From Octopus sinensis (lineage: Eukaryota), in assembly GCF_006345805.1 (NCBI RefSeq), contig NC_043004.1, positions 76,260,001 through 76,324,000 of the forward strand: a stretch of 64,000 nt of DNA. Direction: 5' to 3'. Both the position numbers and the translations under genes were made by a program. The notes beneath the pieces were generated by a model. It was not told the origin of the DNA. It made no database searches and saw nothing but the letters and a program-made list of their open reading frames with translations. Below are positions 15,532 through 42,364 of this stretch, one piece after another. The first letter of the stretch is position 1. Each line of letters starts with the position of its first letter.

Positions 15532-15591
<60 letters not shown>

Positions 15592-15679
15592 TATTATTTG
15601 AGACAAAACCACTATTTGCAAAACAAACAAGGAAAGACTTAATCAATACATAAAATTTAATAAATAGTCAAAAAAAACG

Positions 15680-15722
15680 CCACTACAATCGTTTCTTGTC
15701 TTGATCGACAATCTTCAGGTGG
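15680..15722 (-). ncRNA. Minimal type-I hammerhead ribozyme
   Basis: Reverse complement: CCAC CTGAAGA TTGTC gatcaa GACAA GAAAC gatt GTA GTGG. Confidence 0.85.
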
Positions 15723-17508
15723 ACTTCCAATCTAAAAAATCAAAATTTTAAAATATAAAAATAATACTTTTAAATAATTAAAGTATAAATGAAAAAATAT
15801 AAGTATATAATCCATATATAACCTATATATAATCCATATCGAAAATATAGACTAATTACCACGAATTCCCTAAAAAAACCATGAAAAACAAAACTCTTAA
15901 AAACATATAACGATAAAATCTCCCTTTGCTAAACTCTATAACAAACCTATAAAGTAAACCCCCTAACCTAAACATTCACACACAAATACACACACGTAAA
16001 CCACAGACTCACGACTTATACACATACCTATACTAACTTATAAACCTCAATATACACCAAAACCCACTCCCTCCCCACACAGACAAATTAACACATACAT
16101 CCCAAAACCTAAATAACAACCCATATACACATTCACACACAAAACACACACTCACACGCAAAACACTCACACACAAAAGATACATATACTCCCTCACATA
16201 TACGCCTATACATACTCACTAAACTCGACATATACAACAATACTTACACACCACAAAAAACATTATATACATTTATGAGCTTTAACTCACCTTAGCATCT
16301 CTAACAACAACTTGCAGTAAACCAATCCCATTCTCTATGCCTACCTCACTACTACACTATTCCATTCACATTCCAAGCAACGCTAGTCCACCACCCGGTT
16401 ATTCACGTGGCAAAACGAACACCACTCAAAAATTATGAATGAAACAATGTAAAAAAATAACCAACACCTAAAATAGACAAAATACCACGAATTACCTAAA
16501 AAAACCATGATAAACCAAAACTCATAAAAGCATATAACGATAAAATCTCCCTTAGCTAAAAGTTAGTATAGGTTTGTGTATAAGTCTTGGGTCTGTGGTT
16601 TACGTGTGGGTTTTTTGTGTGTGAATGTTTAGGTTAGGGGGATTGCTATATAAGTTTGTTATAGGGTTTAGCTAAGGGAGATTTTATCGTTATATGCTTT
16701 TATGAGTTTTGGTTTATCATGTTTTTTTTAGGTAATTCGTGGTATTTTGTCTATTTTAGGTGTTGGTTATTTTTTTACATTGTTTCATTCATAATTTTTG
16801 AGTGGTGTTCGTTTTGCCACGTGAATAACCGGGTGGTGGACTAGCGTTGCTTGGAATGTGAATGGAATAGTGTAGTAGTGAGGTAGGCATAGAGAATGGG
16901 ATTGGGTTACTGCAAGTTGTTTGTTAGAGATGCTAAGGTGAGTTAAAGCTCATAAATGTATATAATGTTTTTTGTGGGTGTGTAAGTATTGTTGTATATG
17001 TCGAGTTTAGTGAGTATGTATAGGCGTATATGTGAGGGAGTATATGTATCTTTTGTGTGTGAGTGTTTTGCGTGTGAGTGTGTGTTTTTGTGTGTGAATG
17101 TGTATATGGGTTTGTTATTTAGGTTTTGGGATGTATGTGTTAATTTGTCTGTGTGGGGAGGGAGTGGGTTTTGGTGTATATTGAGGTTTATAAGTTAGTA
17201 TAGTATGTGTATAAGTCGTGAGTCTGTGGTTTACGTGTGTGTATTTGTGTGTGAATGTTTAGGTTAGGGGGTTTACTTTATAGGTTTGTTATAGAGTTTA
17301 GCAAAGGGAGATTTTATCGTTATATGTTTTTAAGAGTTTTGTTTTATCATGGTTTTTTTAGGGAATTCGTGGTAATTAGTCTATATTTTCGATATGGATT
17401 ATATATAGGTTATAATATTGATTATATACTTATATTTTTTCATTTATACTTTAATTATTTAAAAGTATATTTTTATATTTTAAAATTTTGATTTTTTAGA
17501 TTGGAAGT

Positions 17509-17551
17509 CCACCTGAAGATTGTCGATCAAGACAAGAAACGATTGTAGTGG
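17509..17551 (+). ncRNA. Minimal type-I hammerhead ribozyme
   Basis: Stem I CCAC/GTGG, core CTGAAGA, stem II TTGTC/GACAA, GAAA, stem III AC-gatt-GT, cleavage triplet GTA (17545-17547). Confidence 0.85.
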
Positions 17552-17722
17552 CGGTTTTTTGACTATTTATTAAATTTTATGTATTGATTAGTCTTTCCTT
17601 GTTTGTTTTGCAAAATAGTGGTTTTGTCTCAAATAATATTTTATAATATTTTACTATAAAATTGGATTTAATCCTAAATCTGATTTTTTTTCCCTGTAAA
17701 TTTGGATATATTCCCTAATATT

Positions 17723-27120: not shown

Positions 27121-27461
27121 TTATGATCAAAGATATTGCAGTCATAATGATCTCGTCTTCTTATTGGTTACATGTGGAGGCGCAATGGCTCAGTGGTTAA
27201 GGCAGCGGACTCACGGTCGTGGGATCACGGTTTCGATTCCTAGACCGGGCGTTGTGAATGTTTATTGAGCAAAAGCCCCAAAAGCTCAACTATATAAAGT
27301 AGTTGTATGCTGTCAACTTAATATGACAGTCCCATGAAGGGAATAATACTACTGCTATTTAGCCCTAGGAAGCAGCACCACTTCCTGTCAGCCTTGACAT
27401 ATTTCCTGTGTCCTTATGTTTACAAGGGGGAGACAAGAACCTCCACCCAGCTAAGCTTGGA

Positions 27462-27504
27462 CCCAGAGACTAGTTTCTGAGTCTTCCCTCGTCATCAGTC
27501 TGGG
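27462..27504 (-). ncRNA. Minimal type-I hammerhead ribozyme
   Basis: Reverse complement: CCCAGA CTGATGA c GAG ggaaga CTC a GAAAC ta GTC TCTGGG; 6-bp stem I, palindromic ACTAGT, GTC site. Confidence 0.8.
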
Positions 27505-27653
27505 GTAGCATGGCCTGCTAGTTGGAGATGCTTGTCTAGCCCCTGTAAACATCTATGAATTCTAGTGAAATACATTCACTGATTTCAAGAATAGAAATAA
27601 TACATTTCTAAATCTCTCTAGATAGACATCTCCAACTAGGAAACCATGCTACT

Positions 27654-27695
27654 CCAGACTGAAGACTAGCAGTGGCTCAGAAACTAGTCTCCGGG
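27654..27695 (+). ncRNA. Minimal hammerhead ribozyme (more diverged arm)
   Basis: CCAGA CTGAAGA ctAGC agtg GCTca GAAAC ta GTC TCCGG. Confidence 0.7.
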
Positions 27696-28039
27696 TGCTG
27701 GCTTAGCTGGGTGGGAGTGCTTATCTCCCCCTTATAAACATAAGGACACAGGAAATGTGTCAAGGCCGATAGGAAGCAGTGCAGCTTCCTAGGGCTAAAT
27801 AGAAGTAGTATTATTCCCTTCATGGGACTGCCACATATATATGGGTCTTATGAATAGCAACATGTAATCCAAATAAGGACACGAAGAATGAATTTCAGCG
27901 CATTTCTGTTATTACTTACAATCGTTTCAGTACCGCCCCGTTTTTATAAAATGATTTTACGCAAAAATTTACTTGATATTTCGTTGTTGTCATGTATCGA
28001 ACGCTTTTGCTGAGCGTTGATGACACTACAACAAAAGTC

Positions 28040-42272: not shown

Positions 42273-42318
42273 AACACAACGTTTCGACTGATATACCCTC
42301 CAGCCTTCATCAGGTGTT
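42273..42318 (-). ncRNA. Minimal hammerhead ribozyme
   Basis: Reverse complement: AACAC CTGATGA a GGCTG gagggtatat CAGTC GAAAC GTT GTGTT; palindromic AACGTT. Confidence 0.75.
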
Positions 42319-42364
42319 TTGGGGAAATTTCGAACCTGGGTTCTCAGTCCTATGGTATTTTCCA

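What the first reader, a model, noticed from the sequence alone, without database searches (positions are those of the whole stretch)
27320..27838. Second, older fold-back element of an unrelated family with the same two-hammerhead layout
Seen: ~220-bp inverted arms around an ~78-bp spacer. The left HHR has a 6-bp stem I, CTGATGA and GTC site; both keep GAAACTAGTC. It would be misread as a MITE, but I see no clear TSD. The arms have diverged, so it cannot be a read artefact. Inference: the inverted HHR-bearing layout is a recurring product of this retrotransposition mechanism, or a mobile unit in itself.
Basis: partly seen in the sequence, partly recalled or inferred. Interest (0 to 1): 0.75.

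Follow-up and report, generated by a model that had tools for sequence, protein, structure and literature searches.

The report
Head-to-head retrozyme insertion, Penelope-type
This mirror-image stretch is two shortened copies of a common 351-base non-coding jumping repeat with a predicted self-cutting RNA motif, joined back to back, likely when a Penelope-type enzyme copied the RNA into both sides of one DNA cut; the layout is already known and is not a mobile unit of its own.

Summary
The inverted arms (219 nt, 85%) and both hammerhead (HHR) cores are real. The 'spacer' is not a spacer: it is the unpaired 5' part of the left copy. The locus is two 5'-truncated copies of a circularly permuted 351-nt non-LTR retrozyme, joined head to head. 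In 97 sampled loci, 50 are head-to-head, none tail-to-tail, and all 50 junctions differ, so the fold-back does not move as a unit. Only 7 of 50 carry an HHR in both arms. Outer 3' ends fall at two fixed sites about 55 nt apart; 27 of 30 classifiable pairs use one of each, and 12 of those 30 have 8-15 bp TSDs. Inverted 5'-truncated copy, one-sided tail, TSD and opposite-strand HHR pairs are published hallmarks of Penelope-like elements. This copy lacks a TSD, likely because a deletion removed its right end. No autonomous partner was found; cleavage and expression are untested. The scan has noted this layout before, in this genome and others. Residual interest: the arms look independently primed, against a published self-priming model.

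The parts
27294..27626 (-). Left copy of the 351-nt retrozyme monomer (unit positions about 20-352), 5'-truncated, 3' end at the family's 'short' end site
   Evidence: one continuous match at about 90% to family copies
27618..27836 (+). Right copy (unit positions 107-325), 5'-truncated; 3' end stops about 27 nt before the short site and 81 nt before the long site
27540..27617 (-). Apparent spacer = 5' part of the left copy with no counterpart in the right arm
   Evidence: this stretch is collinear with the arm in other copies
27616..27626 (.). Head-to-head junction; 1-nt exact overlap inside a short imperfect homology
27462..27504 (-). Type I hammerhead motif, core intact, 6-bp stem I, palindromic minimal stem III; predicted cut between 27468 and 27467
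   Evidence: activity not tested
27653..27695 (+). Second hammerhead motif, core intact but stems I and II each carry a mismatch; likely inactive
   Evidence: and the sequence
27416..27552 (-). Long rod-like hairpin of the monomer (27416-27451 pairs with 27517-27552) with the hammerhead at its tip
   Evidence: (I6)
27170..27290 (+). 5' part of an abundant tRNA-head SINE-like repeat into which the element was inserted; its 3' part is missing from the right flank
   Evidence: the SINE label is my reading of the sequence, ARAGORN finds no tRNA

Best explanation
The locus is two 5'-truncated copies of a 351-nt non-coding hammerhead repeat (a non-LTR retrozyme) joined head to head, likely written in one event by a Penelope-like element (PLE) protein acting in trans. 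Shown: unit structure, variable junctions, two fixed 3' end sites, TSDs at sister loci. Inferred steps: (1) a tandem source is transcribed; the template is an uncut multimer or a re-ligated circle; (2) the PLE endonuclease cuts both strands of AT-rich DNA with a stagger of up to about 15 nt; (3) reverse transcription starts on both DNA ends, at unit position about 352 on one and about 406 on the other; (4) both cDNAs stop early and are joined through little or no homology; (5) the copy then decays. At this locus a deletion likely removed the right 3' end, the tail, the TSD and the rest of the host SINE. The two hammerheads are passengers.
For: Unit is circularly permuted and occurs in tandem: 26 of 97 loci exceed one unit, 3 of 97 hold two HHRs in tandem; L066 holds three. 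Head-to-head 50 of 97, tail-to-tail 0, 50 distinct junctions; second sample 44 of 80 and 0 (13 loci shared with the first). 3' ends: 66 short and 52 long of 147. One short plus one long end in 27 of 30 classifiable pairs, P 4e-6, and 22 of 22 (5 shared). TSD of 8-15 bp in 12 of 30 pairs against 0.3 in shuffled pairings, 8 of 22 against 0.1. Arms agree at 188 of 207 subfamily sites against 54% for random pairs. Short-end arm reaches further 5' than the long-end arm in 16 of 27 and 12 of 22. 5' ends show no peak at the HHR cut site: 5 of 124 within 11 nt, about 4 expected. The genome holds intact RT plus GIY-YIG frames of 775-883 aa. Same hallmarks in print for PLEs. Host SINE continues in 11 of 11 other copies but not on the right flank here.
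Against: No autonomous PLE sharing a terminal repeat with this family was found in 50 GIY-YIG stretches (30, 20, partly the same places); the few matches were short pieces that I read as separate retrozyme-type insertions. This copy itself has no TSD and a non-standard right end, and its right arm is nested in the left, so it cannot by itself separate double priming from fold-back copying. 20 of 50 pairs and 22 of 44 had at least one end outside the two sites and were not classified. About 8 of the 50 junctions sit on the monomer's own hairpins, where mapping is ambiguous. The tail (about 55 nt) is longer than the 30-40 nt in print. Shared rare variants between arms were not clearly enriched: 12 in 4911 nt, 8 of them from two loci, so one versus two RNA templates is open.
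Confidence: 0.88

Rival explanations
1. The whole fold-back is a mobile unit (MITE-like, or a two-ribozyme retroelement) that is copied as it stands.
For: Long terminal inverted arms; a junction query returned five loci whose match spans the centre; sister loci have TSDs.
Against: Those five junctions differ at base level. 50 of 50 junctions are distinct. Arm lengths vary from about 30 to over 500 nt, ends are asymmetric, 47 of 97 loci are single copies, and TSD length varies from 8 to 15 bp.
Confidence: 0.02
2. One cDNA was made and its end folded back to prime an inverted second copy (self-priming, as proposed for PLEs in PMC3846280), the tail asymmetry arising later by endonuclease trimming.
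For: This locus is compatible (right arm nested in left). A few junctions lie on hairpins of the monomer (L102, L105). Arms share subfamily alleles.
Against: A fold-back copy cannot reach further 5' than its template, nor gain a tail the template lacks; yet the short-end arm reaches further in 16 of 27 and 12 of 22 pairs. Most junctions have 0-7 nt overlap or a few extra bases, not palindromes.
Confidence: 0.07
3. Two independent insertions, or a later DNA-level inversion or duplication, produced the mirror image by chance.
For: Arms here differ by 15% and agree at only 4 of 6 subfamily sites; no TSD.
Against: About half of all loci are head-to-head and none tail-to-tail; TSDs enclose whole pairs; the family has on the order of a thousand copies in 2.7 Gb, so chance abutment is negligible.
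Confidence: 0.03

Closest known systems
Insertions of endonuclease-bearing Penelope-like elements (Arkhipova et al. 2013, PMC3846280; Craig et al. 2021, PMC8557442; passages read)
   Same: Inverted 5'-truncated copy adjacent at the 5' end, head-to-head, tail at one end only, TSD of 8-10 bp, partial tandems, microsatellite/AT-rich targets.
   Different: No ORF; the unit is a 351-nt non-coding circle-like monomer; tail about 55 nt instead of 30-40; TSD often 11-15 bp.
Metazoan non-LTR retrozymes (Cervera and de la Pena 2020, PMC7229834, passages and section 14 read; Li et al. bioRxiv 10.64898/2026.07.22.740005, parts 1-3 of 5 read)
   Same: Type I HHR in tandem repeats, unit 351 nt (mussel 350-390), GC 42%, strongly self-paired predicted circle (z -12), monomers, dimers and trimers, no coding capacity.
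   Different: Inverted pairs and tails are not mentioned in the main text of either paper (term counts). Circular RNA and cleavage are not shown for this family.
Dual minimal HHRs on opposite strands 100-700 bp apart in Schistosoma PLEs (Cervera and de la Pena 2014, PMC4209133; passages read)
   Same: Two HHRs on opposite strands close together; small palindromic helix III thought to need a dimer.
   Different: Here the HHR sits at the tip of a long rod in a retrozyme rather than in the pLTR of a coding PLE.
Poseidon PLE of Anolis in vitro (Frangieh et al. 2024, PMC11167929; parts 1-2 of 4 read)
   Same: Both target strands cut and extended; two internal RT start sites that bound the tail; AT-rich targets; HHR cleavage not needed for insertion.
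   Different: No difference in start site between strands was seen in vitro, whereas genomic pairs here almost always use one of each site.
L1 twin priming (recalled; only search listings seen)
   Same: Both target strands prime, giving an inverted arrangement inside a TSD.
   Different: L1 pieces cover different parts of one RNA; here the two arms cover the same part, which makes a palindrome.

Membership tests
Non-LTR retrozyme | Type I HHR in the unit | tested here: met
   core invariant across four related families while helices change
Non-LTR retrozyme | Unit of 170-400 nt, GC under 50%, no ORF | tested here: met
   351 nt, GC 0.42; no element ORF
Non-LTR retrozyme | Tandem copies with at least two HHRs | tested here: met
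   3 of 97 loci; L062, L063, L066, L082; not at this locus
Non-LTR retrozyme | Self-cleavage and circular RNA in cells | not testable with these tools
   only contigs of runs guessed to be RNA were available
PLE-type insertion | Inverted 5'-truncated copy joined head to head | tested here: met
   50 of 97 and 44 of 80 loci; none tail-to-tail
PLE-type insertion | Tail at one end only | tested here: met
   27 of 30 and 22 of 22 classifiable pairs; not visible at this locus
PLE-type insertion | Variable TSD in AT-rich targets | tested here: met
   12 of 30 and 8 of 22 pairs, controls 0.3 and 0.1; absent at this locus
PLE-type insertion | Autonomous partner with a shared terminal repeat | tested here: inconclusive
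   none among 50 GIY-YIG stretches; the search scored 150 of 5029 candidates
Autonomous PLE | RT plus GIY-YIG ORF in the element | tested here: not met
MITE / fold-back DNA transposon | Fixed symmetric TIRs, constant interior, fixed-length TSD | tested here: not met
   asymmetric ends, 50 different junctions, TSD 8-15 bp

The most novel reading that the evidence does not exclude
Retrozyme insertions record a rule of Penelope-type integration: every event primes both DNA ends independently, one at each of two fixed RT start sites, on an uncut or circular RNA. This would replace the self-priming model for inverted PLE ends and give insertion-site evidence that animal retrozymes are moved by PLE proteins. 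I did not find this stated for retrozymes in five searches, but the scan has noted it before.
Probability: 0.6. Interest if true: 0.4.

Novelty: new member of a known kind. Interest (0 to 1): 0.2.

Why it matters
For annotation: such loci are easily misfiled as MITEs or as two-ribozyme elements; they are dead one-off insertions. For mechanism: how PLEs make their inverted ends is still called undefined. The near-obligate pairing of one short and one long end, with independent arm lengths, is a sharp prediction that the existing in vitro PLE system can test. This particular copy is old and damaged and adds little beyond its family.

Tried and rejected
Expression: no RNA holder listed. Contigs of four runs only guessed to be RNA matched the family (one again); not counted as evidence. 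Rfam: no match. Autonomous partner: a loose contig end led to one locus of a sister retrozyme family, not a PLE; a tail-like match beside a GIY-YIG hit was a third retrozyme family; a PLE fragment abutting L117 is in the wrong orientation to be a template switch. HHR conservation inside the family: core mismatch 2.3% against 5.5% for other arm positions (24 of 1063 against 856 of 15693); kept as weak support only, since copies were picked by similarity and the comparison set includes minor subfamily variants. Family 1 against family 2: 13 of 13 core letters identical at 81% overall identity, chance about 0.07, not significant alone. A negative correlation of arm lengths was rejected as a sampling effect; it vanished in the second sample. 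One versus two RNA templates: inconclusive. Linear HHR-cut monomer as template: rejected, no 5'-end peak at the cut site. Cooperation of the two HHRs: rejected. In the left copy alone stem I is also weakly populated in the predicted ensemble (0.02-0.05). Rows dropped: L308 (same locus as L307) and L352 (satellite array). Supplements of the papers were not read; those of the preprint may list related families.

Full report
Observation. The window is from a 2.72-Gb, microsatellite-rich animal genome; earlier scan notes call it octopus-like, which I did not check. The inverted arms are at 27321-27539 and 27618-27836, 219 nt, 85% complementary, 78 nt apart. Each arm carries a type I hammerhead core in its outward-reading strand; the left has a perfect 6-bp stem I, the right has one mismatch in stem I and one in stem II. 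There is no TSD beyond TATATA.

What the unit is. A search with the right arm gave 2007 first-look candidates, 40 scored. Exact 20-mers occur 264 times (HHR core) and 851 times (3' part, shared with a sister family); reversed controls 0. Mapping shows a circularly permuted monomer of 351 nt: sequence beyond the 3' end runs on into the 5' part. The left copy is continuous from 27626 to 27294, so the 'spacer' is its unpaired 5' part. Tandem arrays with two or three HHRs exist. The monomer is 42% GC and is predicted to fold as a strongly paired circle (z -12 against 60 shuffles) with the HHR at the tip of a rod. Sister families keep CTGA-GA, GAAAC and a palindromic helix III while the helices change sequence. 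This fits the non-LTR retrozymes of Cervera and de la Pena 2020 (passages and section 14).

Unit or by-product. I took the first 100 of the 264 core hits, which are 97 loci. 50 are head-to-head, none tail-to-tail, and all 50 junctions differ; seven pairs of junctions lie within 4 nt of each other, three of them on the monomer's own hairpin; 7 of 50 have an HHR in both arms. About 8 junctions sit on internal hairpins and are less certain. Loci picked for resembling this junction differ from it at base level. A second sample, the first 100 of the 851 hits (80 loci after merging and dropping two rows; 13 shared with the first sample; includes sister-family copies), gave 44 head-to-head and none tail-to-tail. 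The fold-back is therefore a recurring by-product, not a unit.

Ends. Of 147 3' ends, 66 lie at unit 340-358 and 52 at 397-415. Of 50 pairs, 30 have both ends at these sites, and 27 use one of each (P 4e-6). In the second sample 22 of 44 were classifiable and all 22 use one of each (5 shared with the first). TSDs of 8-15 bp enclose 12 of the 30 pairs (7 more lie in simple repeats) against 0.3 in shuffled pairings, and 8 of 22 against 0.1. Arms of a pair agree at 188 of 207 subfamily sites, random pairs at 54%. So each pair is one insertion.

Known match. Craig et al. 2021 describe for PLEs an inverted 5'-truncated copy next to the 5' end and a 30-40 bp tail at one end (passages). Arkhipova et al. 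2013 show inverted pLTRs with a tail at one end, 8-10 bp TSDs and mostly head-to-head orientation, and propose self-priming (passages). Cervera and de la Pena 2014 report HHR pairs 100-700 bp apart on opposite strands (passages). Frangieh et al. 2024 show that a PLE protein cuts and extends both strands, starts at two internal RNA sites that bound the tail, and does not need HHR cleavage (parts 1-2 of 4). Li et al. 2026 argue that animal retrozymes are non-autonomous PLE derivatives (parts 1-3 of 5). The genome holds intact RT plus GIY-YIG frames, but I found none sharing a terminal repeat with this family among 50 stretches.

Mechanism. Inferred: a PLE protein cuts both strands with a stagger and primes reverse transcription on both ends, one at each start site; the two truncated cDNAs are joined with 0-7 nt of overlap or a few extra bases in most cases. 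Fold-back copying of one cDNA predicts that the short-end arm is nested in the long-end arm; it reaches further 5' in 16 of 27 and 12 of 22 pairs, which favours independent priming. 5' ends show no peak at the HHR cut site (5 of 124, about 4 expected) and 26 of 97 loci exceed one unit, so the template is a multimer or a circle. One versus two RNA molecules is unresolved.

This copy. Its left end is at the short site. Its right end stops at unit 325, a position not seen among the 147 sampled ends. The element interrupts a SINE-like repeat at 27290 whose 3' part, present in 11 of 11 other copies, is absent from the right flank. A deletion of the right end, tail, TSD and SINE remainder is the simplest reading; loss at the time of insertion is not excluded. 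The shortened end is also in a contig from another organism label. In a read-through RNA the arms form a long duplex and HHR stem I has pairing probability 0 on either strand, so the two hammerheads cannot cooperate.

The other fold-back. The element at 15579-17649 has 98% identical arms, a different minimal HHR near each outer end, no similarity to this monomer, and a terminal 80-90 nt matching the flanks of intact 781-aa PLE frames at 75-90%.

Verdict. A real, old, damaged head-to-head insertion of a new retrozyme family with textbook PLE hallmarks. I reached this reading before opening earlier scan notes; 58 notes in at least 23 genomes hold the same search words, and one in this genome reports the same two-site rule. 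Interest 0.2.

Noticed in passing
window 15579-17649: Young fold-back (98% arms) with a minimal HHR near each outer end; right end runs about 25 nt further than the left; termini match flanks of intact 781-aa PLE frames. Extreme strand skew: 42 G against 220 C in one arm, a third of the rare base in CpG.
   Followed up: partly
window 42280-42323, minus strand: A third, minimal HHR (CTGATGA ... GAAACGTT) whose surroundings match flanks of several GIY-YIG loci; probably a PLE terminal repeat.
   Followed up: partly
L352 1366-4728: A 125-bp satellite of about 27 units made from the retrozyme's 3' part (unit 272-382), without the HHR.
   Followed up: no
L219-L248: Sister retrozyme family, 349-nt unit, 81% identical, same head-to-head layout and two end sites.
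   Followed up: partly
L215 60-430, L269-L293, L251 5008-5284: Third and fourth related families with the same HHR type, longer palindromic helix III and a similar tail.
   Followed up: partly
L091-L187: In the core-selected sample many 5' ends cluster at unit 129-136 on the 5' strand of the rod; the cluster is not seen in the 3'-selected sample (4 of 124).
   Followed up: partly
L117 1575-2820: A PLE coding fragment on the minus strand abuts a retrozyme fold-back directly.
   Followed up: partly
L188 upstream of 1520: Sister-family copy next to a fragment that reads like a restriction-like endonuclease domain of a LINE (my reading, not tested).
   Followed up: no
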